Source of the DNA: a virus
DNA length: 64,000 nt
Strand: one strand, 5' to 3'
Virus record (IMG/VR): IMGVR_UViG_3300030339_000011
Coordinates: 1-64,000 of that record
In this document: piece by piece, positions 23,841-56,831 of the stretch
Layout of the letters: the number at the start of each line of letters is the position of its first letter
Position numbering within the stretch: the first letter of the stretch is position 1
Made by a program: the position numbers and the translations under genes
Notes under the pieces: model-generated
What the model was told of the DNA's origin: nothing
What the model saw: only the letters and a program-made list of their open reading frames with translations
Databases searched by the model: none

Positions 23841-24467
23841 ATGAAATACATTAAAAAATTTGAAAGTTCAATTAAAAAAATGATTTTGATTGGCGAAAAT
23901 TTGACTGAGTTGCCTGAATTACCAGATACTCTTATGAAATTGCAATGTTCTGATAATAAATTGACATCATTATCTAATTTACCTAATACATTAAATGAAA
24001 TATATTGTAACAATAATATGATAATTGAAATTTCTAAATTACCAGAATTTTTAACTGATTTTGCTTGCTCATATAATAAATTAAAAAAATTGCCAAATTT
24101 GCCTAATACATTAAAAGAACTTTTTTGCTGTGATAATAAACTAACAGAATTACCTATTCTGCCAGATAACTTAAGAATTCTTAGCTGTGATAATAATAAT
24201 TTAAATGAATTACCGATTTTACCAAAAAAATTAACATTATTATCTTGCTCTGGAAACAATTTAGAGAAATTGCCTGAATTACCAGATGGCTTATTGGATT
24301 TATATTGTTATAATAATAATTTAAAAGAATTACCTATATTACCAATTACATTGAAATCGTTGGCTTGTTCTGGTAATAATTTACCATATACTAATTTAAA
24401 AGAATATGATGAGTGGTTAGAAATAAATCATCCTGATATTTTTATGACTAGAAAATTTAACATATAA
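23841..24467 (+). CDS. famC LRR protein (YopM/IpaH-type 20-residue LPxLPxxLxxLxCxxNxL repeats, ~8 repeats)
   Basis: MKYIKKFES ... TRKFNI. LRR consensus visible throughout. Confidence 0.75.
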   Translation: MKYIKKFESSIKKMILIGENLTELPELPDTLMKLQCSDNKLTSLSNLPNTLNEIYCNNNMIIEISKLPEFLTDFACSYNKLKKLPNLPNTLKELFCCDNKLTELPILPDNLRILSCDNNNLNELPILPKKLTLLSCSGNNLEKLPELPDGLLDLYCYNNNLKELPILPITLKSLACSGNNLPYTNLKEYDEWLEINHPDIFMTRKFNI

Positions 24468-24468
24468 T

Positions 24469-25035
24469 ATGAAATACATTAAAAAATTTGAAAATTCAAA
24501 TATAGAATTGAATGATAATCATAAAAATTTAACTATATTGCATAAATTACCAAGAAATTTAGTAAAATTGGAATGCTCAGATAATAAATTGATTAATTTA
24601 CCTACGTTACCAAAAACATTAGAATATTTAGATTGTTCTGGTAATAAATTAATTAAATTGCCTGATATACCAGATTCCTGTAAAAAATTGTATTGTTATA
24701 ATAATAAATTAACTAAGTTGCCTAAATTGTCACAGAATTTAAAAATTATATCTTGCGCAGACAATAAATTAACAGAATTATCAGAGTTACCTGAATCATT
24801 AGATAAATTATATTGTGGTGAAAATAAATTGACAACTTTACCTAATTTACCAAGCAAATTAACTGTATTGTCTTGTAGATTTAATAAATTAACTGAGTTG
24901 CCTATTTTACCAGAAACAATAACAACATTGTATTGTGAAGGAAATGATTTAGGATATTCTGATTTGGATGGTTATTATGATTGGCTGGAAATTAATCATC
25001 CTGAAGTAGTTGATGCAAGTAAATTCAATATATAA
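24469..25035 (+). CDS. famC LRR protein
   Basis: MKYIKKFEN ... ASKFNI. 1-nt spacer from the upstream gene. Confidence 0.75.
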   Translation: MKYIKKFENSNIELNDNHKNLTILHKLPRNLVKLECSDNKLINLPTLPKTLEYLDCSGNKLIKLPDIPDSCKKLYCYNNKLTKLPKLSQNLKIISCADNKLTELSELPESLDKLYCGENKLTTLPNLPSKLTVLSCRFNKLTELPILPETITTLYCEGNDLGYSDLDGYYDWLEINHPEVVDASKFNI

Positions 25036-25038
25036 AAA

Positions 25039-25434
25039 TTATAAATTGAATTTGTCTGCTGTTAATATCATTTCTAATTCTTCAATTGTTTTACCAAATG
25101 CTTTTATATTTGTTTCATTTAGATGAATAACCTTATTTTTTTTAGAACCTAAATTAAAATAATCCCTAATTATATCTGGAATATTTTCATATTCAAAATA
25201 ATTTGATATTTCAGGATGTTTGTTTGATATGTCATATGATACATAATATGTTCTTAAAGTCTTTCCGTTTACTACTACTTTTCCTCCATAATTTCTTATT
25301 CTACCAATATTATTAGTTAAAAAGTCATAAATATCTCCTCCTAAATTGTAATTACTATTATCATATTCAAAAATAATATAATCATTTATTTTTGGCTCAT
25401 TATTTGTGTTTTCATTGAATCTTTCTATTTTCAT
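25039..25434 (-). CDS. famC protein (C1). Start moved to MKIERFNEN
   Basis: The track ORF (25039..25500) reads through the junction. Body has YENIPDII and ends TADKFNL. Confidence 0.6.
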   Translation of the reverse strand: MKIERFNENTNNEPKINDYIIFEYDNSNYNLGGDIYDFLTNNIGRIRNYGGKVVVNGKTLRTYYVSYDISNKHPEISNYFEYENIPDIIRDYFNLGSKKNKVIHLNETNIKAFGKTIEELEMILTADKFNL

Positions 25435-25436
25435 TA

Positions 25437-25754
25437 TTATATGTTGAATTTTCTGGATTGTAAAATAGTTTCTAAATCTTCTATGTTGTCTGACCAACAT
25501 AATATTTCTTTCCTTGAAAAAGTAGTTGTACCTTTATTGAAATATTTTTCTGTATCTTCTGGTATGTTTTCATATTGAACTACAAATGGATATTTATCTC
25601 CTCTATTAAATTCTATGCAAATACCAATATGACTATTAACAAAAGTTCTAGATTTAAATGCTCCAACGTAATCATTAGATAAAATGTATTCTCCTACCAT
25701 TGGAAAGTCTTTTTTATCAGACATTAATTTTTCAAACTCCTTTATATACTTCAT
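25437..25754 (-). CDS. famC protein (C1)
   Basis: MKYIKEFEK ... YENIPED ... SRKFNI. Confidence 0.65.
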   Translation of the reverse strand: MKYIKEFEKLMSDKKDFPMVGEYILSNDYVGAFKSRTFVNSHIGICIEFNRGDKYPFVVQYENIPEDTEKYFNKGTTTFSRKEILCWSDNIEDLETILQSRKFNI

Positions 25755-25756
25755 TG

Positions 25757-26101
25757 TTATAAGTTGAATTTATTTGTTTTTACTATATATTTTATCTTCT
25801 CCAAATCATCTCTTTTTATTTGAGTATATCCATTATTAGGTAGATTATTTTTTATGTCTTCTATGCTTGCAAATGATGAATTATCAAAATATCCTACTAA
25901 TAAATCTATTTTTGGCGTTCTTTTAAAATATATGAAAATTTCATATGTATTATCATGAGAATATATATAATGTTTTATTCTATTTTTTTCTAAATCATTT
26001 AAATCACGTATTAAAACTAACTCATCCTCTTTGCTATCTAAATTATAATTTTGGTAGTAGATATCAAATTCCCTACCTTCATTGAATCTTTCAATTTTCA
26101 T
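25757..26101 (-). CDS. famC protein (C2)
   Basis: MKIERFNEG ... NRIKHYIYSHDNTYEIFIYF ... TNKFNL. Confidence 0.65.
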   Translation of the reverse strand: MKIERFNEGREFDIYYQNYNLDSKEDELVLIRDLNDLEKNRIKHYIYSHDNTYEIFIYFKRTPKIDLLVGYFDNSSFASIEDIKNNLPNNGYTQIKRDDLEKIKYIVKTNKFNL

Positions 26102-26457
26102 TATAATGTATTATTATTTTCACTATTTCTTATTGATTCTAATTCATTTTTATTGTCCCCCCAATATCTAATCTCACCGTTGAATGCATAAATTTCCTTG
26201 ATATCATTATCAGATTCATAGTCACCATAAACATCATCAATATAGCTGTAATTTATAGTATAAAGAACTTCATATTTTTTAATAGAATTATTGTTACCTC
26301 TATTTATTTTTTTATTTTGGTCGTCAATATTTGTTATTAATCCAATAGAATCATTTATATTCTTTTTGTCATGACGGTTATTTACATTTAGTAATACATA
26401 ATTGCCTATCTCAGGCTCTCCATTGTTCAAACTCTCATTAAATCTTTTAACTCTCAT
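26101..26457 (-). CDS. famC-like protein (C1 N-terminus; lacks the KFNI terminus)
   Basis: MRVKRFNESLNNGEPEIGNYVLLN...; ends SENNNTL. Confidence 0.55.
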   Translation of the reverse strand: MRVKRFNESLNNGEPEIGNYVLLNVNNRHDKKNINDSIGLITNIDDQNKKINRGNNNSIKKYEVLYTINYSYIDDVYGDYESDNDIKEIYAFNGEIRYWGDNKNELESIRNSENNNTL

Positions 26458-26459
26458 TA

Positions 26460-26801: not shown

Positions 26802-26803
26802 TG

Positions 26804-27510: not shown

Positions 27511-27512
27511 AA

Positions 27513-27875: not shown

Positions 27876-27877
27876 AT

Positions 27878-28255: not shown

Positions 28256-28257
28256 AA

Positions 28258-29215: not shown

Positions 29216-29217
29216 TA

Positions 29218-29628: not shown

Positions 29629-29637
29629 ATATTAAAC

Positions 29638-34112: not shown

Positions 34113-34739
34113 TTATAAATTAAATTTTCTTGCCATTACTTTTTCTGGATATTTAATCGCAAACCATTCTCTATATTCTCTTAAATCTGAATACGGTAAT
34201 TCATTACCTGTACATTCTAAATCTACTAAGCTTTGAGGTAACTCAGGTAACTCTGTTAATTTATTATTTGAACAATCTAAAAATTCTAAACCATCAGGCA
34301 AATTAGGCATTGATGTTAATTGATTTCCTGTACATTGCAAATCTCTTAATGTGCTTGGTAACTTAGGTAATGAAGTTAATTTGTTATTCATACAATATAG
34401 TTCAATTAATATGTCAGTAAGATCAGGTAACTTAATTATTCTATTATCTGAACAATATAGATATTTTAATGAACTTGGTATTTTATCTAACTTATTCAAG
34501 TCATTTTCAGAACAATTTAATGTTATCAATGTATTCGGTAACTTAGGCATTAAAGATATTGGATTACTCTCGCAATCTAAAATTTCTAATTTAATAGGTA
34601 ATTTTGGTAAAGATTTTATATTATTATTAGCACAACTTAAATATGTTAATGTATCAGGCAACTCTGGTATTTCTGATAATCCACTAAATGAACAATTTAA
34701 TTCTGTGGTCACACTCTCAAATTTCTTTATGTATTTCAT
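34113..34739 (-). CDS. famC LRR protein. Start moved to MKYIKKFES
   Basis: The track ORF (34113..34802) reads through the junction. ~8 YopM-type repeats; ends ARKFNL. Confidence 0.7.
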   Translation of the reverse strand: MKYIKKFESVTTELNCSFSGLSEIPELPDTLTYLSCANNNIKSLPKLPIKLEILDCESNPISLMPKLPNTLITLNCSENDLNKLDKIPSSLKYLYCSDNRIIKLPDLTDILIELYCMNNKLTSLPKLPSTLRDLQCTGNQLTSMPNLPDGLEFLDCSNNKLTELPELPQSLVDLECTGNELPYSDLREYREWFAIKYPEKVMARKFNL

Positions 34740-34740
34740 A

Positions 34741-35490
34741 TTATATGTTAAATTTTTTAGACATTCCCTGAGGAGTTTTAGAAAACCATTTCTTATATTC
34801 ATCTAAATTATCATAAGGTAAATTATTATCAGAGCAATTCAATGTTATTAATGTATCAGGTAACTCTGGTAGTTCTTTCAAATTATTATTTGAACAAGAT
34901 AAATATCTTAATGACTTAGGTATAAATAAAATTTCATTTAAAAGATTATATGAACAATATAATTCTTCTAATTTATCAGGTAAATGTGGTAAATTTGTTA
35001 AATTATTATATGAACAATCCAATGATTCTATTGTATTGGGTAATTTAGGTATCTCTATTAAATGATTTTTGTTGCAATATAAATATTCTAATTTTCCGGG
35101 TAATTCTGGTAATTCATTCAATTTATTATTAGAACAATATAATTCTAATAAAGTATCAGGTAATTTTGGTAACTCAGATATATTATTTTTAAAGCAATCT
35201 AAATATTCTAATCTTATTGGTAATTCTGGTAAATCCATTAACTTATTATTACCAGAATAAAGTATTCTTAAATTTTTAGGTAACTCAGGAAAGATTTCAA
35301 ATTTATTGTTACTAAAATTCAAATTTAATAATGTACTAGGCAATTTTGGTAAATATGTCAAATTATTGTCTTTACATACCAAATGTTCTAAGCCTTCATA
35401 TAACTCTGGTAATTCAGATAACCCGCTAAAAGAATAATCCAACTCTGTTTCAACACTCTCAACACTCTCAAATTTCTTTATATACTTCAT
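34741..35490 (-). CDS. famC LRR protein, 249 aa
   Basis: MKYIKKFES ... MSKKFNI. ~10 repeats. Confidence 0.75.
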   Translation of the reverse strand: MKYIKKFESVESVETELDYSFSGLSELPELYEGLEHLVCKDNNLTYLPKLPSTLLNLNFSNNKFEIFPELPKNLRILYSGNNKLMDLPELPIRLEYLDCFKNNISELPKLPDTLLELYCSNNKLNELPELPGKLEYLYCNKNHLIEIPKLPNTIESLDCSYNNLTNLPHLPDKLEELYCSYNLLNEILFIPKSLRYLSCSNNNLKELPELPDTLITLNCSDNNLPYDNLDEYKKWFSKTPQGMSKKFNI

Positions 35491-35491: not shown

Positions 35492-36178
35492 TTATATGTT
35501 AAATTTTCTAGCCATGGCTATATCTGGAAATTTATTATCAAACCATATTTGGTATTGTTCTAAATTTTCATAAGGTAAATCATTACCCAAACAATTTAAA
35601 TATATTAATGACATAGGTAACTCAGGCAACTCAGTTAATTTGTTATTTGAACAATCTAATTCTCTTAATGTACTAGGTAAATCAGGTAATAATTCTAACT
35701 TATTAAAATTACAGTGTAAATGTTTTAACGTATTAGGTAAATCAGGTAATGATTCTAATTTATTACCAGAACAATAAAAATATACTAATGAATCAGGTAA
35801 CTCAGGTAATGAAGATAATTCATTATTTGAACAATATATTTCTCTTATATAATGAGGTAATTCTGGTAATGAAATTAAACTATTTGACATACACCTCATC
35901 ATTTTCAAACTATTAGGTAACTCAGGTAATGATTCTAATTTATTAAAATTACAAAGTAAATTTATTAAAGTATCAGGCAATTCTGGTAATGATTCTAATT
36001 TATTGCTGTTACAATTTAACACTTCTAATGTGCTTGGCAACTTAGGTAAATATTTTAAATCATTATAAAAACATGATAATTTTATTAATCCATCAGGTAA
36101 TTCAGGAATTTCTTTTAATCCTGCTATGGAATAATCTAAATCTTTTATTATTGTATAATATTTGTTTATGTATTTCAT
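35492..36178 (-). CDS. famC LRR protein, 228 aa
   Basis: MKYINKYYT ... ARKFNI. Confidence 0.75.
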   Translation of the reverse strand: MKYINKYYTIIKDLDYSIAGLKEIPELPDGLIKLSCFYNDLKYLPKLPSTLEVLNCNSNKLESLPELPDTLINLLCNFNKLESLPELPNSLKMMRCMSNSLISLPELPHYIREIYCSNNELSSLPELPDSLVYFYCSGNKLESLPDLPNTLKHLHCNFNKLELLPDLPSTLRELDCSNNKLTELPELPMSLIYLNCLGNDLPYENLEQYQIWFDNKFPDIAMARKFNI

Positions 36179-36185: not shown

Positions 36186-36560
36186 TTATATGTTAAATTT
36201 TTTAATCATTGAATTAAAGTACCATTCTTTGTATCCTTCTAAACTATCATAAGGTAAATGATTTCCTTTACAATATAATAATGTTAATGTATCAGGTAAC
36301 TTTGGTAGTATTTTTAATTCATTGTAACCACAATCTAAATATTCTAATTTATCAGGAAGTTTTGGTAAAGTTTCTAATTTGTTACAACTACAATCTAAAT
36401 ATATTAATGAATCAGGTAACTCAGGTAGCTCAGCCAATCTATTATTATAACAATATAAATGTTTCAACGTATCAGGTAACTCTTCTCTTAGTTCAGTTAA
36501 TCCTCTATTAGACTTATATAAAAATTTAATTTCTTTCTCAAAAATTTTAATGTGTTTCAT
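36186..36560 (-). CDS. famC LRR protein, 124 aa
   Basis: MKHIKIFEK ... IKKFNI. Confidence 0.7.
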   Translation of the reverse strand: MKHIKIFEKEIKFLYKSNRGLTELREELPDTLKHLYCYNNRLAELPELPDSLIYLDCSCNKLETLPKLPDKLEYLDCGYNELKILPKLPDTLTLLYCKGNHLPYDSLEGYKEWYFNSMIKKFNI

Positions 36561-37006
36561 ATGTTAAATTTATTTGCATTAACTACCTCAGGATGATTAA
36601 TATTCAGCCATTCATTATATTCCGCCAGATTTTTAAAAGGAGCATCATTTCCTTTGCAAAATAATTCTTTTAATGTGACTGGTAATATTATAGGACATTT
36701 AATTAATATATTATAATCAAATGATAAATATTCTAATCTACTTGGTAACTCTGTTAATTTTTCTAAATTATTATCATAACATGACAAAATTCTTAATGAT
36801 TTTGGTAACTCAGGTAACTTAGTTAATTTATTATCTGAACAATACAATTCTTCTAGCCCATTTGGCAACTCAGGTAGTTCAGTTAATCTATTGCCATAAC
36901 AGTATAATTTAATTAATGTTTTAGGTAATTTTGGTAATGTGCCTAATCCGTTAGCATTATAATATAATTCTTTCACTACTTTTTCAAACATTTTAATGTA
37001 TTTCAT
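36557..37006 (-). CDS. famC LRR protein, 149 aa
   Basis: MKYIKMFEK ... ANKFNI. Confidence 0.7.
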   Translation of the reverse strand: MKYIKMFEKVVKELYYNANGLGTLPKLPKTLIKLYCYGNRLTELPELPNGLEELYCSDNKLTKLPELPKSLRILSCYDNNLEKLTELPSRLEYLSFDYNILIKCPIILPVTLKELFCKGNDAPFKNLAEYNEWLNINHPEVVNANKFNI

Positions 37007-43423: not shown

Positions 43424-44110
43424 TTAAATATTAAATTTGCTCATATCACCAACCTCAGGCTGATTCTCACTCATCCATTTTTTATAACCATCTAAATCAT
43501 CATAAGGCAAATTATTACCATCACAATCTAAATATAATAATGATGAAGGTAATATAGGTAATGTTTTTAAATTGTTGTTAGAACATTTTAAATCCTTTAA
43601 GCCCTCAGATAAATAAGGTAAGGATGATAACTCATTGTTCTTGCAATCTAATATTTTTAATCCATCAGGTAAAGTAGGCAATGAAGTTAAAAAATTATCA
43701 AAACAATGTAACTCTATTAATCCATCAGGTAAAGTAGGTAATGAAATCAATTTATTGTCCCTACAATATATCTCCCTTATATTCTTAGGTAAATTAGGTA
43801 ATGAATATATTTCATTATTAGAACAATCTAAATATATTAATCTATCAGGTAAAGTAGGTAATGATGTTAAATGATTTTTTGAACAACATAACTCTAATAA
43901 TCTGTCAGGTAACTCTGGTAATGAATCTAATAAATTACCCCTACAATCTAAATCTTCTAATGTACTTGGTAACTTAGGTAACTCTGTTAATATGTTATAT
44001 TTACATGATAAATTTGTTAATCCTTCTTGTAAATCTGGTAACTTACCTAATTTTTTTATATCACAAATTAACGTTTGTTCAATACCCTCAAACTTCTTTA
44101 TATATTTCAT
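43424..44110 (-). CDS. famC LRR protein. Start moved to MKYIKKFEG
   Basis: The track ORF (43424..44140) reads upstream. ATGA overlap with the GNAT gene. ~9 repeats; ends MSKFNI. Confidence 0.7.
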   Translation of the reverse strand: MKYIKKFEGIEQTLICDIKKLGKLPDLQEGLTNLSCKYNILTELPKLPSTLEDLDCRGNLLDSLPELPDRLLELCCSKNHLTSLPTLPDRLIYLDCSNNEIYSLPNLPKNIREIYCRDNKLISLPTLPDGLIELHCFDNFLTSLPTLPDGLKILDCKNNELSSLPYLSEGLKDLKCSNNNLKTLPILPSSLLYLDCDGNNLPYDDLDGYKKWMSENQPEVGDMSKFNI

Positions 44111-44926: not shown

Positions 44927-45427
44927 TTATATGTTAAATTTATTTGCAGAATACTTCTCTGGAAATTCTTTAAAATCCTTATAACCATCTAAGTTATTAT
45001 AAGGTAAATTATTACCATAACAATATAACCTCTCTAATGAATCAGGTAACTCTGGTAATTCAGATATATTATTGCTCTCACAATCTAAATATTTTAATGT
45101 ATTAGGTAATTTAGGCAATGATGTTAATTCATTACTTGTACAAAACAATTCCTCTAATGTATCAGGTAACTCAGGCAACTCACTTATTTTATTATAACAA
45201 CAATCTAAGCCAATTAATTTAGTAGGTATCTCTGGTAATTTCGTTAATTTATTACTAGAACAATTTAAATTTTTTAATGTAACAGGTAACTTTGGTAACG
45301 TAGTTAAATCATTACCAAGACAATTTAAATTTAATAATGTACTAGGCAACTTCGGTAACTTACTCAATCCTTTTTGAAAACAATTTAATGTTGTTACTAT
45401 GCCCTCAAACTCCTTTATATACTTCAT
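44927..45427 (-). CDS. famC LRR protein, 166 aa
   Basis: MKYIKEFEG ... ANKFNI. Confidence 0.75.
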   Translation of the reverse strand: MKYIKEFEGIVTTLNCFQKGLSKLPKLPSTLLNLNCLGNDLTTLPKLPVTLKNLNCSSNKLTKLPEIPTKLIGLDCCYNKISELPELPDTLEELFCTSNELTSLPKLPNTLKYLDCESNNISELPELPDSLERLYCYGNNLPYNNLDGYKDFKEFPEKYSANKFNI

Positions 45428-45749: not shown

Positions 45750-46337
45750 TTAAATATTAAATTTTCTTGATTGAAAAATATCAGGCTGATTTATCTCTAA
45801 CCATTCATTATATTCTTTCAAATTTTTATATGGTAAATTATTACCGCCACAATCTAAATATTCTAATGTATAATGCAATAATGGTAACTCACTTAAATTG
45901 TTATCATGACAATCCAATTCTTTTAATGATAATGGTAATATAGGTAGAGAAGTTAAATTATTTTTATAACAACTTAATTTTATTAATGTACTTGGTAATT
46001 TAGGTAACTCAGTCAATTCGTTTTTATAACAATTAAATTTTATTAATGTATCAGGTAATTCAGGTAACTCAGTTAATTTATTATTACTACAAAATAATAC
46101 TTCTAATCCATCAGGTAAAGTTGGTAAAGAGTATAATAAATTTTTACCACAATATAACTCTTTTAATGTATCAGGCAACTCTGTAAACTCACTTATCTTA
46201 TTTCCACTACAATACAATTTCTCTAATGTATCTGACAACTCAGGTAACTCTGTTATGCCTTCTCCAAAACTTGTATTAGTTAATTTTAAGATATTGTCTT
46301 CGTTCTCTATATGTTCAAACTTTTTTATATACTTCAT
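45750..46337 (-). CDS. famC LRR protein, 195 aa
   Basis: MKYIKKFEH ... SRKFNI. Confidence 0.75.
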   Translation of the reverse strand: MKYIKKFEHIENEDNILKLTNTSFGEGITELPELSDTLEKLYCSGNKISEFTELPDTLKELYCGKNLLYSLPTLPDGLEVLFCSNNKLTELPELPDTLIKFNCYKNELTELPKLPSTLIKLSCYKNNLTSLPILPLSLKELDCHDNNLSELPLLHYTLEYLDCGGNNLPYKNLKEYNEWLEINQPDIFQSRKFNI

Positions 46338-46339: not shown

Positions 46340-46858
46340 CTATATGTTAAATTTATTTGCTCCACCAATCTCAGGATGATTTTCTTCTAACCACTTCTTA
46401 TATCCAATTAAATCATTATAAGGTAAATTGTTCCTTGAACATGTTAATGTTCGTAATGTATTAGGTAATAAAGGCAACTCACTCAAATTGTTATCCTGAC
46501 AATATAACTCCTTTAATCCATCAGGTAAAATAGGTAACTCACTTAATTTATTATCAGCACACGATAATATAAATAATGTATCAGGTAACTTTGGTAACTC
46601 AATTAATTCATTTTCATAACAATATAATATCTCTAATCCATCAGGTAGATTTGGTAATCTCTCTAATCTGTTCCTTGTACAATCTAAATATCTTAATGTA
46701 TCAGGTAACTTAGGTAATGTATGTAAATTGTTAAGAGAACAACGTAACTTCTCTAATGTATCAGGTAAATTAGTTAAATCATTAATATTTTCATCATTAC
46801 AATCTAAATCTGTAACAATACTCTCAAATTTCTTATTAAATCTCTTTATATACTTCAT
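46340..46858 (-). CDS. famC LRR protein, 172 aa
   Basis: MKYIKRFNK ... ANKFNI. Confidence 0.75.
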   Translation of the reverse strand: MKYIKRFNKKFESIVTDLDCNDENINDLTNLPDTLEKLRCSLNNLHTLPKLPDTLRYLDCTRNRLERLPNLPDGLEILYCYENELIELPKLPDTLFILSCADNKLSELPILPDGLKELYCQDNNLSELPLLPNTLRTLTCSRNNLPYNDLIGYKKWLEENHPEIGGANKFNI

Positions 46859-46860: not shown

Positions 46861-47310
46861 TTATATGTTAAATTTATTAGCTGCATACTTCTCTGGAAAT
46901 TCTTTCCAATCATTATAACTATCCAAATCATAATATGGAAAATCATTTCCTCCACAATCTAAATTCTCTAATGATGCAGGCAAATCAGGTAATGAATTTA
47001 ACTTATTATTAGAACAATCTAATATCCTTAATCCTTCAGGTAACTTTGGTAAATATTTTAATTTGTTGTTGTAACAATATAATATCTCTAATGTATTAGG
47101 TAACTTCGGCAATGACATTAAATAATTACTGTTGCAATATAATGTCTTCAAATTGATAGGCAACTCAGGTAATTCATTTAAATAATTATCATTGCAATAT
47201 AATGTAACCAATCCATTAGGTAAATCAGGTAATACAGTTAAATAAGATTTAGAATAATCTAATGGCATTATCAAAATTTTTATCTTCTCAAAACTCTTTA
47301 TATACTTCAT
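46861..47310 (-). CDS. famC LRR protein, 149 aa
   Basis: MKYIKSFEK ... ANKFNI. Confidence 0.75.
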   Translation of the reverse strand: MKYIKSFEKIKILIMPLDYSKSYLTVLPDLPNGLVTLYCNDNYLNELPELPINLKTLYCNSNYLMSLPKLPNTLEILYCYNNKLKYLPKLPEGLRILDCSNNKLNSLPDLPASLENLDCGGNDFPYYDLDSYNDWKEFPEKYAANKFNI

Positions 47311-47312: not shown

Positions 47313-47753
47313 TTATATGTTAAATTTTTTAGCCATTCCCTGAGGAGTTTTAGAATACCAAAATTTATATCCATCTAAATCCTCATAAGGTAAATTGTTA
47401 CCACCACAATGTAATATACTTAAATTTTCAGGCAACTCAGGCAAATCACTTAATTTATTGTTAGAACAATATAACATTTTCAATGTATTAGGCAACTTAG
47501 GTAATGACGTTAATTCATTATTAGTACAATATAATTCTTTTAATTCAATAGGTAACTCAGGCAACTCTGTTAAATAATTAAAATTGCAAACTATATTCTC
47601 TAATGTATCAGGTAATATAGGTAACTCAGTTAATTTATTACGATGACAACGCAATGTTATCAAATTATTAGGCAACTTAGGTAATTTTGTTAACTGTTGA
47701 TCAGAACATTCAAAATCTGTAACTCTACTCTCAAACCTCTTTATATACTTCAT
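47313..47753 (-). CDS. famC LRR protein, 146 aa
   Basis: MKYIKRFES ... AKKFNI. Confidence 0.75.
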   Translation of the reverse strand: MKYIKRFESRVTDFECSDQQLTKLPKLPNNLITLRCHRNKLTELPILPDTLENIVCNFNYLTELPELPIELKELYCTNNELTSLPKLPNTLKMLYCSNNKLSDLPELPENLSILHCGGNNLPYEDLDGYKFWYSKTPQGMAKKFNI

Positions 47754-47755: not shown

Positions 47756-48136
47756 TTATATGTTAAATTTATTAGCTGAATAAGACTCAGGAGATTCTTT
47801 CCATTCCTTATACTCTCTCAAGTTATTATAAGGCAAATAATTACCATCACATTCTAAAAATTCTAATCCTATCGGTAAATTAGGTAACTCCCTTAACTTA
47901 TTATCAGAACAATCTAAATATTGTAATGTATCAGGTAACTCTGGTAATGAAGTTAAATAATTACCACTACAATATAATAAATCTAATGCATCTGGTAACT
48001 TAGGTAACTCTGTTAATTCATTATAATTACAATTCAAATAAGTTAATGTATCAGGTAACACTGGTAATATTTTTAAATTACTACTAGATAAATCTAACTC
48101 TGTTACTGTACTATCAAATCTCTTTATATACTTCAT
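47756..48136 (-). CDS. famC LRR protein, 126 aa
   Basis: MKYIKRFDS ... ANKFNI. Confidence 0.75.
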   Translation of the reverse strand: MKYIKRFDSTVTELDLSSSNLKILPVLPDTLTYLNCNYNELTELPKLPDALDLLYCSGNYLTSLPELPDTLQYLDCSDNKLRELPNLPIGLEFLECDGNYLPYNNLREYKEWKESPESYSANKFNI

Positions 48137-48138: not shown

Positions 48139-48525
48139 TTATATGTTAAATTTTTTACCATTACTAACCTCAGGATGATTTACTTCTAACCATCTATTAT
48201 ATTCTCTTAAATTGTTATAAGGTAATTTGTTACCACTGCAATTAAAATCTATTAATGAATTAGGTAATATAGGTAACTCTCTTAATCTGTTATCACTAAT
48301 ATCTAAATATAGTAAATTATAAGGTAAATTAGGTAAAGAATCTAAATTGTTAGATTGACAATATAATTCTTCTAATGTTATAGGTAACTCTGACAACTCT
48401 GTTAAATTATTATAAGAACAATTTAAATATTCTAAATTTTCAGGTAAATGCGGCAACTCAATTAAATGCTCATTAGAACAATCTAATGATATAATAGTAT
48501 GCTCAAACTTTTTAATGTATCTCAT
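48139..48525 (-). CDS. famC LRR protein. Start moved to MRYIKKFEH
   Basis: Track ORF is 48139..48567. Ends GKKFNI. Confidence 0.7.
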   Translation of the reverse strand: MRYIKKFEHTIISLDCSNEHLIELPHLPENLEYLNCSYNNLTELSELPITLEELYCQSNNLDSLPNLPYNLLYLDISDNRLRELPILPNSLIDFNCSGNKLPYNNLREYNRWLEVNHPEVSNGKKFNI

Positions 48526-48636: not shown

Positions 48637-49215
48637 CTATATGTTGTATTTTCTACTATTAATAACCTCAGGATGATTAATAGAAAGCCAATCATTATAA
48701 CCATCCAAACCATCATAAGGTAAATTATTATGATCACAAACTAAATATAGTAATGACTTAGGTAAATTTAATGGTAACTCACGTAAATCATTATAAGAAC
48801 ATTCTAATAACTCTAACGTATCAGGTAACTCTGGTAACTCACTTATGTTATTCTCAGAACAATTTAACTTGATTAATCCATTAGGTAATGTAGACAAACT
48901 TTTTAATTTGTTGTCAGAACAAAATATGTATTTTAATCCTTCAGTTAAGCCAGATAAATCTTCTAACCTGTTGCTGTTGCAATTTAAATAATCTAATGAA
49001 ATAGGTAACTCAGGTAACTTAGTTAATCTGTTGTTAAAAAAACTTAAATTTACTAATCCATCAGGTAAGCCAGATATTGTAGTCAATCTGTTGTTATAAC
49101 AAAACAAATTTATTAATGTACTAGGTAACTCTGGTAATACCTCTAAACCCTTATCACTTAAATCTAACTCTGTTATTGGAATAATAAATTTCTCAAACTG
49201 CTTTACATGCTTCAT
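48637..49215 (-). CDS. famC LRR protein, 192 aa (MKHVKQFEK ... SRKYNI)
   Basis: ORF track. Confidence 0.75.
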   Translation of the reverse strand: MKHVKQFEKFIIPITELDLSDKGLEVLPELPSTLINLFCYNNRLTTISGLPDGLVNLSFFNNRLTKLPELPISLDYLNCNSNRLEDLSGLTEGLKYIFCSDNKLKSLSTLPNGLIKLNCSENNISELPELPDTLELLECSYNDLRELPLNLPKSLLYLVCDHNNLPYDGLDGYNDWLSINHPEVINSRKYNI

Positions 49216-49306: not shown

Positions 49307-49816
49307 CTATATACTAAATTTAGAAGCAGCATATACATCTGGATGATTCTCCTTTATCCATCTCCTGTAACCATGTATATTATTATAAGGTAATCCATTA
49401 CCATCACAATATAAATATTCTAATGAAGAAGGTAAATGTAAAGGCAACTCAGTTAATTTATTGTTATTACACGTCAATTCAATTAATGACTCTGGTAATA
49501 TAGGCAGTGAAGTTAAATTGTTATCATCACATCCTAAATATTCTAATCCATTAGGTAAATTAGGTAACTCACTTAATCCATTACCATTACAACCTAAATC
49601 AACTAATGTATCAGGTAATTCAGGTAACGAACTTAAATTATTATGATCACAATATAAAACTGTTAAACCATTAGGTAACTCTGGTAACTCCTTTAATCTA
49701 TTACCACTACACCTTAACTCCCTTAATTCATTAGGTAAATCAGGTAATACCTCTAAATTCCTTAAAGATACATTTATATCTGTAACCATACTCTCAAACT
49801 GCTTAATATGCTTCAT
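49307..49816 (-). CDS. famC LRR protein, 169 aa (MKHIKQFES ... ASKFSI)
   Basis: ORF track. Confidence 0.75.
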   Translation of the reverse strand: MKHIKQFESMVTDINVSLRNLEVLPDLPNELRELRCSGNRLKELPELPNGLTVLYCDHNNLSSLPELPDTLVDLGCNGNGLSELPNLPNGLEYLGCDDNNLTSLPILPESLIELTCNNNKLTELPLHLPSSLEYLYCDGNGLPYNNIHGYRRWIKENHPDVYAASKFSI

Positions 49817-49819: not shown

Positions 49820-50326
49820 CTATATGTTAAATTTTCTACTATTAAATACCTCAGGATGATGTATTGACATCCAATGATTATAACTATTCAAATCCTTATA
49901 AGGTAACCCATTACCACTACAATTTAAAATTCTTAATCCATTAGGTAATATAGGCAATGACTTTAATAAATTACCTGTACAATATAACTCCTTTAAACCC
50001 TCAGGTAAATTAGGTAACTCCATTAAATTGTTGTCAGAACAATATAACTCCCTTAATCCATCAGGCAACTTAGGTAACGATGTTAATTCATTTATACTGC
50101 AATATAAATATACTAATGATTCAGGTAACTCTGGTAATGATACTAATTTATTACTACCACAATATATTGTAATTAAACCATTAGGTAAAGTAGGTAATGA
50201 TACCAATAAATTGCTGTTGCACTCCAATGTCTCTATAGTAGAAGGCAAATCAGGTAATAATTCTAAATCCTTGTGAGAATATACTAATTTCCTAACTATC
50301 TCTTCATTTACTTTTAAATGCTTCAT
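49820..50326 (-). CDS. famC LRR protein. Start moved to MKHLKVNEE
   Basis: Track ORF is 49820..50374. Ends SRKFNI. Confidence 0.7.
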   Translation of the reverse strand: MKHLKVNEEIVRKLVYSHKDLELLPDLPSTIETLECNSNLLVSLPTLPNGLITIYCGSNKLVSLPELPESLVYLYCSINELTSLPKLPDGLRELYCSDNNLMELPNLPEGLKELYCTGNLLKSLPILPNGLRILNCSGNGLPYKDLNSYNHWMSIHHPEVFNSRKFNI

Positions 50327-50768: not shown

Positions 50769-50769
50769 T

Positions 50770-52952: not shown

Positions 52953-52996
52953 TGTATAATATTTATTTTTGTGGTATCAGACAGTAATGAAAAGAT

Positions 52997-53500
<504 letters not shown>

Positions 53501-53517
53501 CTACAAAGATAATACAT

Positions 53518-54029: not shown

Positions 54030-54284
54030 TTATATGTTAAATTTATTAGTTATTTTACTGATGTCATAACTTTCAATTTGATCTGGTGTCATTAGATATA
54101 ATACTTTCTCTTCAAAATAAAGTGTAGGATATTCTTCTAATGAATATAAAAATTCTTTTCTATATTTAGAATATTCTGCTTCAGATACAACTCCTCTTCT
54201 ACCTCCTGTTGATATAACACAATCTCCTACTTTAAATTTACTCATACTATTATCAATCTTTTCAAACTCCTTAATGTATTTCAT
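54030..54284 (-). CDS. famC protein, subtype C3 (MKYIKEFEK..SKFKVGDCVIS..LMTPDQIESYDISKITNKFNI)
   Basis: Paralogue of 55999..56268. Confidence 0.6.
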   Translation of the reverse strand: MKYIKEFEKIDNSMSKFKVGDCVISTGGRRGVVSEAEYSKYRKEFLYSLEEYPTLYFEEKVLYLMTPDQIESYDISKITNKFNI

Positions 54285-54301: not shown

Positions 54302-55303
54302 TTATTTAACGTTTGTGTCATTCAAAGGAGAACTAAGTATATCATAAATTCGATAAATACTTTCCCAAACATATACAGCTCCCTCATGATTTGAATTATC
54401 AACATATTCAGCAAACAATAAAACTTTTCCTCCAACTTCTACTATTTCAGGATCTGCTACTTGATTTGTATCAGGAAAAGGTGATCTTGTGATATCCAAT
54501 AATGGATAGTATATCTTTTCAAAATATAATGGATTATTAAAATCTGCCTCTGCATATCCAAGAATTGAAGGTGGAGTTGCCTGCATTGAATAATGATAAA
54601 ACATTTTAAATATACCATTATCATAGAATACTTTTGCTCCACCATGAGAACTATATGCAGGAGCTAATCCATTAACAACACCAACCATCTCCCAGCCACT
54701 TTCCATTGAGATGCTTTTTAATAGTTTCATACCCCATGGACTTCCTGAATCCATTGATTCACGACCTTCAATAAACCAGTAAAAATAGCCATCAATTCTG
54801 TATGGAATTATACAATGATTACCAAACATACCCGCTTTAAAATTACTAACAACATCCAATAAAGTTTTACTAATTACCGTAAAATTTCTACCATCTGTGG
54901 ATGATAACATTGCACAATAGTTGCTACTCCAACAACTAACTACCATATATACCTTGGAGTTAAATATAAAAGCGTAACTACATTTTACTATAGCTGAATC
55001 AATACCTAATAATGCTGAATTAACTGCAATTGATGTATTGGTAGCAATATGATTTAATACATCATACTCAGCTACATTAATATGTTCTGATTCCCATCCC
55101 TCAGTATAATAAATAAAATTTATACCATTAAACTTTACAAGTCCAAATTCCTGAGCACTAGGTACTGAAAGTCCTTGTACCAATGTAGCAGAATCATTTG
55201 AAATCAATTTTTGCTTTAAACTCATAGCACCACTATCTCCTCCTGTCGAACCAGTTAATTGCACTCCTACCCATTCTTCACTTGCTAATTGTATATTTAT
55301 CAT
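54302..55303 (-). CDS. Protein with the famF N-terminal anchor motif (MINIQLASEEWVGVQL..GSTGG) fused to an unrelated ~300-aa body, possibly a beta-propeller or glycosidase-like fold
   Basis: N-terminal 20 aa match the fibre genes. The body (GYFYWFIEGRE, NGIFKMFYHY, W/Y/G-rich) has no fibre core and no repeats. Confidence 0.6.
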   Translation of the reverse strand: MINIQLASEEWVGVQLTGSTGGDSGAMSLKQKLISNDSATLVQGLSVPSAQEFGLVKFNGINFIYYTEGWESEHINVAEYDVLNHIATNTSIAVNSALLGIDSAIVKCSYAFIFNSKVYMVVSCWSSNYCAMLSSTDGRNFTVISKTLLDVVSNFKAGMFGNHCIIPYRIDGYFYWFIEGRESMDSGSPWGMKLLKSISMESGWEMVGVVNGLAPAYSSHGGAKVFYDNGIFKMFYHYSMQATPPSILGYAEADFNNPLYFEKIYYPLLDITRSPFPDTNQVADPEIVEVGGKVLLFAEYVDNSNHEGAVYVWESIYRIYDILSSPLNDTNVK

Positions 55304-55340
55304 ATTTTTTTATGATTATATATTAAATTTAATTACTGAA

Positions 55341-55934
55341 TATTACTGTGGTGACTTCTATTATTTAACAATCTTTAACTTGGTATATCCGATATAAAGC
55401 GTTATCTTTGTATCGTGATTGACAGTGTAATGCCTGGAGTATATTCTCCAACGCGGGACATTACGTAACTGTTAAACAATCATTATAAATGTTATCACTT
55501 TAACTGTTTTAACCTAACAATATTAAACTTGTTAAGGATTTAACTCTTCACAAATGTACAACACACTTTAAATCAAATAGTTACAGAGATATACAGGAAA
55601 TATGCAGGATTAACGCATAATTATAGATGTTAATACGGTATATAAAATGCATAAACGTAACTCTGTTATTTACAGATAGTTACAAGTAAGTCCTATAATA
55701 ATATATTATGATCAATACTAATTTCCTGTTATAACTGTTAAGGATTTAACTACTGTTATACTAATCTTAAATAAGTTAAAATGTTTTAACAGTTACGTAT
55801 TACCCCGCTCTCGGGCTCCATGATCCTACGTCCATGTTATCAAGACAAAGATAACGCTTTTAATTGATTTTACAAAATTTTATATGGTTAAGAATAAATA
55901 AAGATTGTTAAATTTAACATATCACCACAGTAAT
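55341..55934. repeat. Large imperfect inverted repeat (arms ~130-150 bp) around a ~310-bp centre. Could be a foldback or MITE-like element, or an origin-like structure
   Basis: Left-arm blocks ATTACTGTGGTGA, AAAGCGTTATCTTTGT and TACGTAACTGTTAAA reappear as reverse complements in mirrored order in the right arm (55786-55934). The centre has the direct repeat GTTAAGGATTTAACT at 55529 and 55727. Confidence 0.55.
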
Positions 55935-55998
55935 ATTTACAAAGTAAATACCTGCAACAGCAGTAATGTTCGATAAATAAATTTTAATATATAACAAT

Positions 55999-56268
55999 AT
56001 GAGACACATTAAAAACATTAAACAATTTAAATCAAGTAGAAATTCTAAATTTAAAAAAGGAGATTATATCATGTCAACTAAAAGTAATAAAAAAGGTATT
56101 ATAGATAATATAATATCTTCTGATAAACCTGAAGATTTTGAATTTGCATATCATTTAAAAGATTATAAAGATAATATTTATCTTAAAGATACAAGTATAA
56201 TATTAATGACACCAGAACAAATTGAACAATATAACCTTGAAAAATCAACTGATAAATTTAACCTATGA
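55999..56268 (+). CDS. famC protein, subtype C3 (MRHIKNIKQFKS ... STDKFNL)
   Basis: AATATATAACAAT sits directly upstream of the ATG. Confidence 0.6.
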   Translation: MRHIKNIKQFKSSRNSKFKKGDYIMSTKSNKKGIIDNIISSDKPEDFEFAYHLKDYKDNIYLKDTSIILMTPEQIEQYNLEKSTDKFNL

Positions 56269-56831
56269 AATATATTAAACACTTCGAAAGATCTTATGTA
56301 ACAGTAAATTATTCTAATCAACATTTAACTGAACTTCCTATATTACCTGATATATTATATGAATTGTATTGCTCAAATAACGACATATATAAGCTACCTA
56401 CATTACCTGATACATTAATATATATTACCTGCGCTAATAATAATCTTAATGAGCTACCTGAGTTGCCAATATCATTGAAACATTTATTTTGCTATAATAA
56501 TAAATTGAATGAACTACCTAAATTACCTGACAGCTTATTAACATTGTCATGTAGTAGTAATAACATTACTGAACTTCCTATACTACCTAATAAATTAGAG
56601 TCATTGTCATGTAGTGGTAACTATATATCTGAGCTACCTATGCTACCTAATACATTGATTGAACTGAATTGTAGTGACAATAACCTTACCATGCTACCTA
56701 TACTACCTGATAGCTTAAAAACATTGTACTGTAATGGTAATGAACTACCATACACTAACCTCAAAGAGTATAATGAATGGCTAACGATAACCCATCCTGA
56801 AGTAATCAACGCTAAGAAGTTTAACATATAA
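56265..56831 (+). CDS. famC LRR protein, 188 aa (MKYIKHFER ... AKKFNI)
   Basis: ATGA overlap with the upstream gene. ~8 YopM-type repeats. Confidence 0.75.
   Translation: MKYIKHFERSYVTVNYSNQHLTELPILPDILYELYCSNNDIYKLPTLPDTLIYITCANNNLNELPELPISLKHLFCYNNKLNELPKLPDSLLTLSCSSNNITELPILPNKLESLSCSGNYISELPMLPNTLIELNCSDNNLTMLPILPDSLKTLYCNGNELPYTNLKEYNEWLTITHPEVINAKKFNI

What the first reader, a model, noticed from the sequence alone, without database searches (positions are those of the whole stretch)
23841..56831. Nineteen YopM/IpaH-type 20-residue LRR proteins lacking any enzymatic domain, in a 15-kb run
The repeat LPxLPxxLxxLxCxxNxLxxLPE has a 20-residue period. This matches bacterial type-III-effector LRRs (YopM, IpaH, SspH) rather than typical eukaryotic 24-residue LRRs. 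Copy number per gene varies from 4 to 10, which suggests an evolving host-interaction or effector repertoire. None carries an NEL or E3 domain. All carry the famC termini.
Basis: partly seen in the sequence, partly recalled or inferred. Interest (0 to 1): 0.6.

Follow-up and report, generated by a model that had tools for sequence, protein, structure and literature searches.

The report
Phage-encoded family of LRR-only proteins
A very large bacteriophage carries 19 small proteins made almost only of YopM/IpaH-type 20-residue leucine-rich repeats, a fast-changing set of probable protein binders that share short end-tags with dozens of unrelated neighbouring phage genes.

Summary
Exactly 19 intact ORFs (124-249 aa, 10.2 kb of coding DNA) consist of an 8-residue leader, 4-10 LRR units of 20 residues, and a ~24-residue helical tail ending in KFN[IL]. 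All 19 pass Pfam LRR_4. None hits NEL, FNIP or RI-type models. The best solved-structure matches are YopM, SspH1/2, IpaH and SlrP.

The window comes from a huge tailed phage related to the 462-735 kb genomes of Al-Shayeb 2020, not from a type-III-secreting bacterium. The units carry a near-invariant Cys ladder. This subtype is also common in metagenomic proteins, and at least two of those sit on giant-virus-like contigs.

The leader and tail are shared with 37 other ORFs of unrelated folds in the window. They also co-occur on many AT-rich huge-phage contigs.

The repertoire is changing. A related phage shows a two-unit (120-nt) insertion/deletion between near-identical genomes. The syntenic locus holds 1-4 LRR genes. 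SNPs between population variants cluster in one LRR gene.

Most likely these are non-enzymatic binders of host-cell proteins. Their target, expression timing and any virion packaging are untested.

The parts
23841..24467 (+). LRR-only gene, 208 aa, cap + 8 units
24469..25035 (+). LRR-only gene, 188 aa, 7 units
34113..34739 (-). LRR-only gene, 208 aa from the leader ATG, cap + 8 units; last gene of its array, ends KFNL
34741..35490 (-). LRR-only gene, 249 aa, 10 units (the longest)
35492..36178 (-). LRR-only gene, 228 aa, 9 units; SNP hot spot between population variants (codons 120-202)
36186..36560 (-). LRR-only gene, 124 aa, 4 units (the shortest)
36557..37006 (-). LRR-only gene, 149 aa, cap + 5 units; first gene after the tail-fibre cluster and its hairpin
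43424..44110 (-). LRR-only gene, 228 aa from the leader ATG, 9 units; directly upstream of the tail-fibre genes
44927..45427 (-). LRR-only gene, 166 aa, cap + 6 units
45750..46337 (-). LRR-only gene, 195 aa, 7 units; query of the homologue search
46340..46858 (-). LRR-only gene, 172 aa, cap + 6 units
46861..47310 (-). LRR-only gene, 149 aa, cap + 5 units
47313..47753 (-). LRR-only gene, 146 aa, 5 units
47756..48136 (-). LRR-only gene, 126 aa, cap + 4 units
48139..48525 (-). LRR-only gene, 128 aa from the leader ATG, cap + 4 units
48637..49215 (-). LRR-only gene, 192 aa, cap + 7 units; ends KYNI
49307..49816 (-). LRR-only gene, 169 aa, 6 units; ends KFSI
49820..50326 (-). LRR-only gene, 168 aa from the leader ATG, cap + 6 units
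56265..56831 (+). LRR-only gene, 188 aa, 7 units; modelled with AF2. The syntenic locus in relatives holds 1-4 LRR genes.

Best explanation
What it is. The 19 genes are a lineage-specific, tandemly amplified family of small, soluble, non-enzymatic LRR solenoids encoded by a huge tailed phage.

Architecture. Each protein has a flexible 8-residue leader (MKYIKxFE). This is followed by a short arc of 4-10 YopM/IpaH-class 20-residue units, built on an Asn ladder and a Cys ladder. The protein ends in a two-helix C-cap with the tail KFN[IL].

How it most likely works (inferred). With no catalytic domain, these proteins would act stoichiometrically. The variable face of the arc would bind a protein of the infected cell, blocking, sequestering or bridging it, as YopM does with its targets. 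The paralogues differ mainly at the non-scaffold positions and in arc length, so together they would form a panel of binding specificities.

How the panel changes. It turns over by slippage of whole 60-nt units. It also turns over by gain and loss of whole genes, for which the near-identical gene junction (AAATTTAACATATAA-nn-ATGAAGTATATAAAG) is a ready recombination substrate (inferred).

The shared tags. The same leader and tail occur on SH3-like and other neighbouring gene families. The leader alone occurs on an ankyrin gene and a GNAT gene. This implies that all these products share one handling step.

Shown versus inferred. Shown: fold, repeat class, absence of an enzyme domain, phage origin, shared tags and ongoing variation. 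Inferred: binding of host proteins, intracellular site of action, and any common handling step.
For: - Fold and class.
- Scaffold positions are nearly invariant (mean entropy 0.60 bit). The five x positions of LxxLxCxxN average 3.13 bits over 124 units.
- No signal peptide, membrane segment or extra domain is visible in the sequences.
- Phage origin: an MVP-like protein is 50-53% identical to LR756500/501/503, and the tail-fibre genes carry T4 gp9/10_N.
- Conservation across diverged phages: tagged LRR genes occur in L009-L011, L099 and L102/L103. In L008/L098 they carry another C-terminal module.
- Turnover: L102 has three perfect copies of one unit and L103 has one, in otherwise ~100% identical DNA. 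The syntenic locus holds LRR genes of 168, 188 and 232 aa, or four genes. 18 of the 22 differences between the window and L004 lie in 250 nt of gene 35492-36178.
- Company: the leader is also carried by an ankyrin gene and a GNAT gene. That mix is typical of intracellular effector toolkits rather than of fibres.
- A 211-aa LRR-only protein lies next to the replicative helicase, not next to tail genes, in a cultured Vibrio phage.
Against: - There are no data on expression, localisation or targets.
- There is no similarity to known defence-system models.
- The non-concave variable positions are almost as variable (2.83 bits) as the concave ones, so variability is not focused on the concave face.
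- In the window and in L102/L103 the genes lie next to tail-fibre genes on the same strand. This fits a virion or adsorption role equally well.
- The repeat-number difference rests on two short-read assemblies.
Confidence: 0.5

Rival explanations
1. Virion-associated host-recognition modules. In this reading the LRR arcs are accessory adhesins. They would dock on the tail fibres, baseplate or capsid through the short tags, and they would widen or switch receptor specificity. This resembles the LRR-bearing DUF7941 'fibre cloud' proteins proposed for phage Goslar.
For: - LRR arrays flank three tail-fibre genes on the same strand (37087-43333). One LRR gene lies 3 kb from two more tail-fibre genes. 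In L102/L103 four LRR genes precede FISUMP-domain fibre-like proteins.
- Microdiversity between population variants is concentrated in one LRR gene and in the fibre genes.
- The Goslar preprint reports virion DUF7941 proteins fused to LRR/beta-helix domains.
Against: - The fibre genes have their own N-termini, an upstream TATATAGAAATAAAA motif and terminator hairpins, and they lack the tags.
- The tags are shared with a GNAT enzyme (leader only), ankyrin proteins and about 37 small globular proteins. Those are unlikely fibre parts.
- Four to ten units without an anchoring domain is small for an adhesin.
- In the cultured Vibrio phage the LRR gene sits in a replication-gene neighbourhood.
Confidence: 0.22
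2. Packaged and injected effectors (a sub-case of the best explanation, and the most novel one). In this reading the MKYIKxFE leader is a capsid-targeting sequence like the T4 CTS and is removed after Glu8 by the prohead protease. The LRR, ankyrin, GNAT and SH3-like proteins would then be loaded into the giant head and enter the cell with the DNA.
For: - Unrelated folds share only a short leader that AF2 leaves disordered (pLDDT<50 for residues 1-6 and 1-4) in two folds.
- Glu8 is the best-conserved leader residue after Met1 and Lys2, in both leader variants.
- The leader recurs on huge-phage contigs of up to 501 kb.
Against: - The T4 cleavage context (L/I-x-E) is not present.
- No head or protease gene lies in the window for comparison.
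- Fifty-six or more packaged species from 64 kb alone would be unprecedented.
- The C-terminal tag is not explained by this model.
- The C-terminal tag overlaps a nucleotide motif that also precedes untagged genes, so part of the 'tag' may be regulatory.
Confidence: 0.15
3. Eukaryote-directed effectors. In this reading the phage's bacterial host lives in or on a protist or animal. The LRR and ankyrin proteins would act on eukaryotic proteins after release or secretion, as proposed for the eukaryotic association module of Wolbachia phage WO or for true T3SS effectors.
For: - The best solved matches are effectors that bind human proteins.
- Close metagenomic homologues occur on NCLDV-like contigs.
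- Ankyrin genes accompany the LRR genes.
- The DNA is very AT-rich (22-24% GC).
Against: - No secretion signal or secretion-system gene is present in the window.
- The relatives are free-living-type huge phages predicted on Bacteroidetes.
- The Cys-ladder 20-residue subtype is simply widespread in environmental sequence.
- Resemblance at the level of repeat class does not indicate the target.
Confidence: 0.08
4. Selfish or neutral expansion. In this reading the array is a by-product of recombination at the conserved junctions, and the individual copies have no function.
For: - Near-identical junctions flank the genes.
- Gene and unit numbers vary.
Against: - All 19 ORFs are intact.
- The scaffold residues (L, P, C, N) are >90% conserved while paralogues are only ~50% identical.
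- The family persists in phages that share only ~70% nucleotide identity or less.
Confidence: 0.05

Closest known systems
YopM (Yersinia LRR-only type III effector; PDB 4ow2, 1g9u/1jl5)
   Same: - It is an LRR-only, non-enzymatic protein built of 20-residue LPxLP units with an Asn ladder.
- It is the best sequence match among solved structures (E 7.6e-96).
- Foldseek gives 43% identity and rmsd 0.5 A over 142 columns.
- It works as a scaffold and binder, which is the mode proposed here.
   Different: - The phage proteins have 4-10 units, far fewer than fill the 448-454-residue YopM chains (my memory is about 13 or more).
- They have no helical N-cap.
- They have Cys instead of an aliphatic residue at unit position 12 in 122 of 133 units.
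- They carry the phage leader and the KFN[IL] tail.
- They are encoded by a huge phage, with no T3SS context.
IpaH / SspH1 / SspH2 / SlrP novel E3 ligases (NEL family)
   Same: The substrate-binding LRR domain is of the same class. Top Foldseek hits are SspH1 4nkg and IpaH7.8 7wjq. NCBIfam gives partial hits to the SspH2 and SlrP models over the LRR part only.
   Different: There is no NEL domain. The NCBIfam scores are 94-144 bits against cut-offs of 1113-1243. The proteins end about 24 residues after the last repeat.
Metagenomic Cys-ladder 20-residue LRR-only proteins, some on giant-virus (NCLDV-like) contigs
   Same: These are the closest relatives by sequence (40-59% identity). They have the same LxxLxCxxNxL core at period 20 and are LRR-only proteins of 210-340 aa. 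L012 carries an mRNA-capping enzyme, Evr1/Alr and a protein kinase. L013 carries XRN and Thy1.
   Different: They have other terminal sequences, for example ...DLDEFLNNW or basic tails, and they lack the MKYIKxFE/KFNI tags. Their hosts are different.
T4 internal proteins (IPI, IPII, IPIII) with the capsid targeting sequence
   Same: This is a phage-encoded, hypervariable set of unrelated small proteins that share only a short N-terminal leader (PMC3012670).
   Different: The leader sequence is different, and there is an additional C-terminal tag. Packaging and cleavage are untested here. The number of tagged genes (56 in 64 kb) is far larger.
Goslar DUF7941 virion protein family with LRR/beta-helix domains
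   Same: This is a large-phage paralogous family in which a common module is combined with variable domains, including LRR, and it is proposed to act in host recognition.
   Different: The common module there is a folded domain, not an 8-residue leader plus a 4-residue tail. No sequence relation was tested.
Single LRR-only hypothetical proteins of cultured large phages (phrog_21719; Vibrio phage VB_VaC_SRILMA CDS0008)
   Same: These are phage-encoded proteins with the same repeat class (phrog_21719 E 1.6e-35; tblastn 33% identity).
   Different: They are single genes, not a 19-member array. They are untagged and uncharacterised, and the Vibrio phage copy lies next to a DnaB-like helicase.

Membership tests
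Bacterial-type (20-residue, LPxLP) LRR class | Repeat length of 20 residues | tested here: met
   111 of 114 spacings are exactly 20 and 3 are 21. TRF finds 60-nt periods.
Bacterial-type (20-residue, LPxLP) LRR class | Consensus LxxLxaxxNxLxxLPxLPxx with an Asn ladder | tested here: met
   The consensus is P-E-L-P-D-T-L-x-x-L-x-C-x-x-N-x-L-T-E-L. The entropy at N15 is 0.07 bit over 124 units. The 'a' position is Cys in 122 of 133 units, which is a variant.
Bacterial-type (20-residue, LPxLP) LRR class | Closest solved structures are YopM, IpaH or SspH LRR domains | tested here: met
IpaH/SspH/SlrP NEL E3 ligases | C-terminal NEL domain with a catalytic cysteine | tested here: not met
   There is no Pfam hit other than LRR families. 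NCBIfam matches cover only the LRR part and fall far below the cut-offs. Only ~24 residues follow the last unit.
IpaH/SspH/SlrP NEL E3 ligases | Delivery by a type III secretion system | not testable with these tools
   No T3SS gene is present in the window and the replicon is a phage.
YopM family | LRR-only architecture without an enzymatic domain | tested here: met
YopM family | N-terminal alpha-helical cap preceding the repeats | tested here: not met
   The AF2 model has no helix before the first strand. Residues 1-6 are disordered and strand 12-15 opens the solenoid.
   No such hit at E<=0.01 in any of the 19 proteins, and the period is 20.
Internalins | Signal peptide, 22-residue units and an Ig-like inter-repeat domain | tested here: not met
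   The charged leader MKYIKKFE is not a signal peptide (sequence). The period is 20. The internalin_J hits score 24-41 bits against a cut-off of 1700.
T4-type CTS-tagged internal (ejected) proteins | Unrelated proteins sharing only a short N-terminal leader | tested here: met
   At least four unrelated cores (LRR, SH3-like, ankyrin, GNAT) carry the leader.
T4-type CTS-tagged internal (ejected) proteins | Prohead-protease site (L/I-x-E in T4) at the end of the leader | tested here: inconclusive
   Glu8 is conserved in 43 of 56 tagged ORFs, but the residue at P3 is K or F, not L or I. The protease of this phage is unknown.
T4-type CTS-tagged internal (ejected) proteins | Presence inside the virion and ejection into the cell | not testable with these tools
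   This needs virion proteomics.

The most novel reading that the evidence does not exclude
The MKYIKxFE leader, with or without the KFN[IL] tail, may be a sorting tag. It would load a very large and rapidly diversifying repertoire of small binding and modifying proteins into the giant capsid for co-injection with the DNA. The repertoire includes LRR, ankyrin, GNAT and SH3-like proteins, with at least 56 tagged genes in this 64 kb alone. This would be a phage counterpart of a secretion-system effector arsenal, with the 19 LRR proteins as its programmable target-binding arm.
Probability: 0.15. Interest if true: 0.85.

Novelty: new variant of a known kind. Interest (0 to 1): 0.6.

Why it matters
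Huge phages carry hundreds of genes with no assigned role. Here a sixth of a 64-kb stretch is one family with a clear fold and a clear generic activity, protein binding. It also has a visible mechanism of diversification: whole units and whole genes are gained and lost.

If the targets are host defence or housekeeping proteins, this would be a phage-side analogue of the variable LRR repertoires used in immunity and by bacterial effectors. The proteins are small, Cys-laddered and length-variable, so they could also serve as a natural binder scaffold.

The shared end-tags link the family to dozens of other gene families on many huge-phage contigs. That gives a concrete, testable handle on how such phages organise their accessory proteome. 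I found no description of either feature in the papers searched.

Tried and rejected
- Megablast of the 16.5-kb run against 50,697 phage records found no match.
- tblastn of an SH3-like tagged protein against the same collection found no match.
- The published huge-phage relatives LR756500-504 gave no LRR hit at 1e-5.
- The search for related loci with the 22-sequence alignment failed because no stretch was conserved enough.
- A diversity-generating retroelement as the cause of the SNP cluster in 35492-36178 is rejected. The 18 changes are not adenine-specific.
- Gene conversion from another paralogue in the window is rejected. The next-best paralogue is only 77-79% identical to the variant segment, against 93% for the allele itself.
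- A purely nucleotide-level origin of the C-terminal tag is rejected as the whole story. That idea treats the tag as a start signal for the next gene. However, 13-14 array-terminal genes keep K[FY][NS][IL] in different codons.
- A purely protein-level origin is also not tenable. AAC is used in 39 of 56 tags although it makes up only 12% of Asn codons in the window. The motif TTAAYATATAR also occurs in non-coding DNA upstream of untagged genes.
- PADLOC models showed no resemblance of the LRR proteins to defence-system sensors.
- There are no tRNA genes in the window.
- The sigma-70 promoter scan was uninformative: 190 sites found against 185 expected.
- Near-identical population variants of the window itself (L003-L007, >=99.8% identity) show no repeat-number differences.

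Full report

Yes. The window is very AT-rich (19-30% GC in 2-kb windows). It is packed with short, co-oriented ORFs separated by 1-3 nt or overlapping by 4 nt.

Nineteen ORFs are built from a 20-residue unit. I chained the core L..L.C..N.L through each protein. This gave 4-10 canonical units per gene, each preceded by a degenerate cap unit. The spacing is exactly 20 residues in 111 of 114 cases and 21 in the other three.

The unit consensus is P-E-L-P-D-T-L-x-x-L-x-C-x-x-N-x-L-T-E-L. A strict version of the motif occurs 109 times in the six-frame translation. All 109 lie inside these 19 genes, so there are no further copies or remnants. TRF independently reports 60-nt arrays of 65-87% identity in the genes.

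All 19 proteins exceed the Pfam LRR_4 gathering score. None matches NEL, FNIP or RI-type LRR models at E<=0.01. Leader, cap, units and a ~24-residue tail account for the full length of every protein, so there is no space for an enzymatic domain.

- The genes lie in four blocks over 33 kb.
- The main run (34113-50326) includes three tail-fibre genes and three non-LRR genes.
- Four genes should start at the leader ATG rather than at the first ATG of the ORF.

**2. Repeat class**

The longest member was searched against all PDB sequences. The best matches were YopM (4ow2, E 7.6e-96), SspH2, YopM 1g9u, IpaH, SspH1 and SlrP. Eukaryotic LRR proteins came far behind.

NCBIfam matches only the LRR parts of the SspH2 and SlrP models, at about a tenth of the cut-off scores.

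An AF2 model of 56265-56831, built with the paralogues as the alignment, has mean pLDDT 93.8. It shows one short strand per unit and two C-terminal helices (166-176 and 178-186). It has no N-terminal helix, and residues 1-6 have pLDDT below 50. Foldseek places it on the SspH1, IpaH7.8, IpaH2.5 and YopM LRR domains, with 43% identity and rmsd 0.5 A over 142 columns for YopM.

So the assignment to the 20-residue 'bacterial' LRR class is sound. One difference stands out: unit position 12 is aliphatic in YopM and IpaH but is Cys in 122 of 133 units here.

**3. What the DNA is**

It is a huge tailed phage, not a T3SS-bearing bacterium.
- An 819-aa major-vault-protein-like ORF (7965-10424) is 50-53% identical over 97-99% of its length to three 'uncultured phage' records of 462 and 735 kb. 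These are the genomes of Al-Shayeb et al. 2020. That paper places its largest genomes in the 'Mahaphage' clade and predicts Bacteroidetes hosts for those above 634 kb.
- The ORFs 37087-38970 and 39034-40872 start with the T4 gp9/gp10 N-terminal motif. They match the PHROG 'baseplate wedge tail fiber protein connector' and cyanophage and pelagiphage fibre genes.
- ORF 40934-43333 carries a FISUMP domain.
- The same sequence, at >=99.8% identity, occurs on contigs of up to 126.5 kb from several JGI and ENA assemblies.

A Bacteroidota host is an inference from these relatives and from the FISUMP domain. It was not tested.

**4. The shared termini**

All 19 LRR proteins end in K[FY][NS][IL], and 17 begin with M[KR][YH][IV]KxF[E/D/N]. 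The same ends occur on 37 other ORFs in the window. In total 56 of 108 non-overlapping ORFs of at least 80 aa end this way, against a chance expectation of about 2e-4 per ORF.

The cores of these other ORFs are unrelated to LRR.
- About 20 form a family that AF2 models (pLDDT 84.6) as a small beta-barrel plus a C-terminal helix. It has only weak SH3-like matches (PsaE, YorP).
- Others are Tyr-rich alpha/beta proteins.
- An ankyrin protein and a GNAT acetyltransferase carry the leader only.

In both AF2 models the first 4-6 residues are disordered and KFNI closes a terminal helix.

In IMG/VR, 75 distinct complete ORFs begin exactly with MKYIKKFE. They lie on AT-rich viral contigs of up to 501 kb, and at least 45 of them also end in K[FY]N[ILV]. 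Only one of the 75 is an LRR protein. The tags are therefore a general feature of a group of huge phages, and the LRR expansion is special to this lineage.

The nature of the tags is mixed.

Evidence for protein-level constraint:
- I/L/V/M, F/Y and K/R swaps use several different codons.
- 13-14 array-terminal genes keep the tail even though no gene follows them.

Evidence for an additional nucleotide-level or translation-level constraint:
- The Asn codon in the tail is AAC in 39 of 56 tags, although AAC is only 12% of Asn codons in the window.
- The 11-mer TTAAYATATAR occurs 34 times against 4.6 expected.
- Nearly all of its C form makes up the coding tails. Most of its T form lies in non-coding DNA 4-24 nt upstream of the ATG of genes, including the tail-fibre genes.

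I cannot decide between a start signal for the next gene, a termination-context effect and concerted evolution.

**5. Relatives and turnover**

- *Relatives with tagged LRR genes.* Phages sharing about 70-83% nucleotide identity in places (L009-L011, L102/L103) have the same tagged families. Tagged LRR genes also occur on a 243-kb contig (L099). In L008/L098 they carry the MKYLKYFE leader but a different, longer C-terminal module.
- *Gene number.* At the locus syntenic with 56265-56831 the relatives hold one gene of 168 aa, one of 232 aa, or four LRR genes.
- *Unit number.* L102 and L103 are 100% identical over 8.6 kb and 99.6% identical over the next 9.5 kb. Yet one LRR gene has three perfect copies of LPxLPDTLHELYCSSNNLTT in L102 and one copy in L103, a difference of exactly 120 nt. 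Assemblers usually collapse repeats rather than expand them. The 141-mers of the assembly that shows one copy would span such an array. I therefore take the polymorphism as probably real, but it needs long reads.
- *SNP clustering.* Within the window's own population there is no length variation. However, 18 of the 22 differences from L004 lie in 250 nt of gene 35492-36178. Most of the remaining differences in the other variants lie in the tail-fibre genes. The changes are not adenine-specific, and no paralogue in the window is a donor.
- *Positional variability.* Across 124 units the scaffold positions average 0.60 bit of entropy. The five x positions of the strand average 3.13 bits and the remaining positions 2.83 bits.

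**6. Closest sequence relatives**

A search of 5.8 billion proteins returned 741 hits. Seven of the best 120 carry the MKY[IL]K-type leader, and four of those also carry the tail.

The rest are 210-340-aa LRR-only proteins with the same Cys-ladder core at period 20 but with other termini. Two that I looked up lie on contigs with NCLDV hallmark genes. L012 has an mRNA-capping enzyme, Evr1/Alr and a protein kinase. L013 has XRN and Thy1. One hit is annotated in a Candidatus Daviesbacteria MAG.

A cultured 196-kb Vibrio phage has a single 211-aa LRR-only hypothetical protein next to its DnaB-like helicase. PHROG 21719, of unknown function, matches the family at 1.6e-35.

The repeat class is therefore known, and single phage LRR genes exist. 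I found no description of an LRR expansion or of the end-tags in the huge-phage and jumbo-phage papers I could search.

**7. How it most likely works**

*Shown.* The family is soluble and non-enzymatic. It consists of short LRR arcs of the YopM/IpaH class, encoded by a huge phage, tandemly amplified, intact and conserved in scaffold. It varies in unit number, gene number and non-scaffold residues, and it is co-tagged with unrelated families.

*Inferred.* The arcs bind proteins of the infected cell stoichiometrically, blocking, sequestering or bridging them as YopM does. The paralogues would form a panel of specificities that turns over by unit slippage and by recombination at the near-identical gene junctions.

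I prefer an intracellular role (confidence about 0.5). The tags are shared with ankyrin and GNAT proteins rather than with the fibre genes. The fibre genes have their own N-termini, an upstream motif and terminator hairpins.

The main rival is a virion or adsorption accessory role, suggested by the repeated adjacency to fibre genes and by the Goslar precedent.

The most novel reading is that the leader is a capsid-targeting signal and these are injected effectors, by analogy with the T4 CTS. It fits the disordered leader and the conserved Glu8. It fails the T4 cleavage-site pattern, and nothing supports it directly.

A true T3SS-effector or eukaryote-directed role is unlikely but not excluded.

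**8. Verdict**

This is a new variant of a known kind: YopM-class LRR-only proteins, Cys-laddered, end-tagged and expanded to 19 copies in a huge phage. Interest is 0.6.

Noticed in passing
window-wide; examples 18661-34019, 44523-44924, 45430-45747, 50490-52142, 54030-54284, 55999-56268: Thirty-seven non-LRR ORFs carry the same C-terminal K[FY]N[ILVM], and most also carry the N-terminal M-K-x-[IL]-K-x-F-E or M-K-I-x-R-F-N-E leader. About 20 of them form one family (consensus ...PEVGDYVIC...YDNIP...EELExIL) that AF2 models as a small beta-barrel plus a C-terminal helix, with weak SH3-like matches (PsaE, YorP).
   Followed up: partly
window, 34 sites, e.g. 38985-38995, 40887-40897, 50331-50341, 55316-55326, 55984-55994 (non-coding) and the 3' ends of tagged genes: The motif TTAAYATATAR occurs 34 times against 4.6 expected. 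Most copies of the T form lie in non-coding DNA 4-24 nt upstream of start codons, including those of the tail-fibre genes. Nearly all copies of the C form make up the coding KFNI-stop. AAC is used for the tag's Asn in 39 of 56 genes, against 12% of Asn codons window-wide.
   Followed up: partly
window 40900-40927, 38998-39025, 37051-37078: An identical 28-nt hairpin, AACTCAGTTAATTAATTTTAACTGAGTT, followed by a T-run lies after each of the three tandem tail-fibre genes. The first two copies are followed by the conserved sequence TAATATATAGAAATAAAAATATTA just before the next fibre gene's ATG, and a similar TATATAGAAATAAAA string precedes the fibre genes 40934-43333, 59773-61299 and 61973-63550. 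A similar hairpin lies at about 61905-61935 upstream of 61973.
   Followed up: no
window 37087-38970, 39034-40872, 40934-43333, 59773-61299, 61973-63550, 54302-55303: Five tail-fibre-like paralogues carry long arrays of a 9-residue unit (NSIGSNFxx; 27/54/81-nt periods). They have two alternative N-termini: MSKQTINIGTYPNDGTGD (T4 gp9/10_N type) and M[IL]NIQLASEEWV. The second N-terminus also heads a 333-aa protein with no family match. ORF 40934-43333 has a FISUMP domain.
   Followed up: partly
window 7965-10424 (- strand): An 819-aa protein has major-vault-protein shoulder, Vault_3 and Band_7 matches. It is 50-53% identical to ORFs of the 462-kb and 735-kb huge phages LR756500/501/503.
   Followed up: partly
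window 30795-32188, 52530-53898, 58164-59356 (- strand): This is another untagged paralogous family of eight genes (140-218 aa). The N-terminal half is conserved (MNKEEL..WF.NKF.SCYPV...YDE.F.RK.KL). There is no Pfam or PHROG match. The family is also expanded in the relatives L009/L010.
   Followed up: no
window 12021-13075, 14342-14662, 15131-15511, 17549-17836 (- strand): A set of small proteins, some with an N-terminal hydrophobic segment, share a C-terminal motif (D)IE.YLR.KK(I/L).K. This is a second example of a conserved terminal motif on otherwise different proteins.
   Followed up: no
L008 8800-20500 (ENA ERZ27262927 k141_238743) and L098: A different AT-rich phage encodes type II topoisomerase subunits, a D12-class methyltransferase and YopX. 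It has LRR and other proteins with the leader MKYLKYFE. They carry a different, ~50-residue shared C-terminal module (...FGSYEYQKEYLT..PEKYKDLE..GY...IKEEFDWLFNAIDMGL[LM]).
   Followed up: partly
L102 10763-11389 versus L103 10763-11269: A related huge phage is represented by contigs of 235 and 434 kb, and a member of the same protein cluster lies on a 711-kb contig. One of its LRR genes has three perfect tandem copies of a 60-nt unit in one assembly and one copy in the other. The flanking DNA is ~100% identical.
   Followed up: yes
window 58012-58022 (- strand): A TTAACATATAG motif lies outside any listed ORF of at least 60 aa. It may be the end of a short or decayed tagged gene.
   Followed up: no
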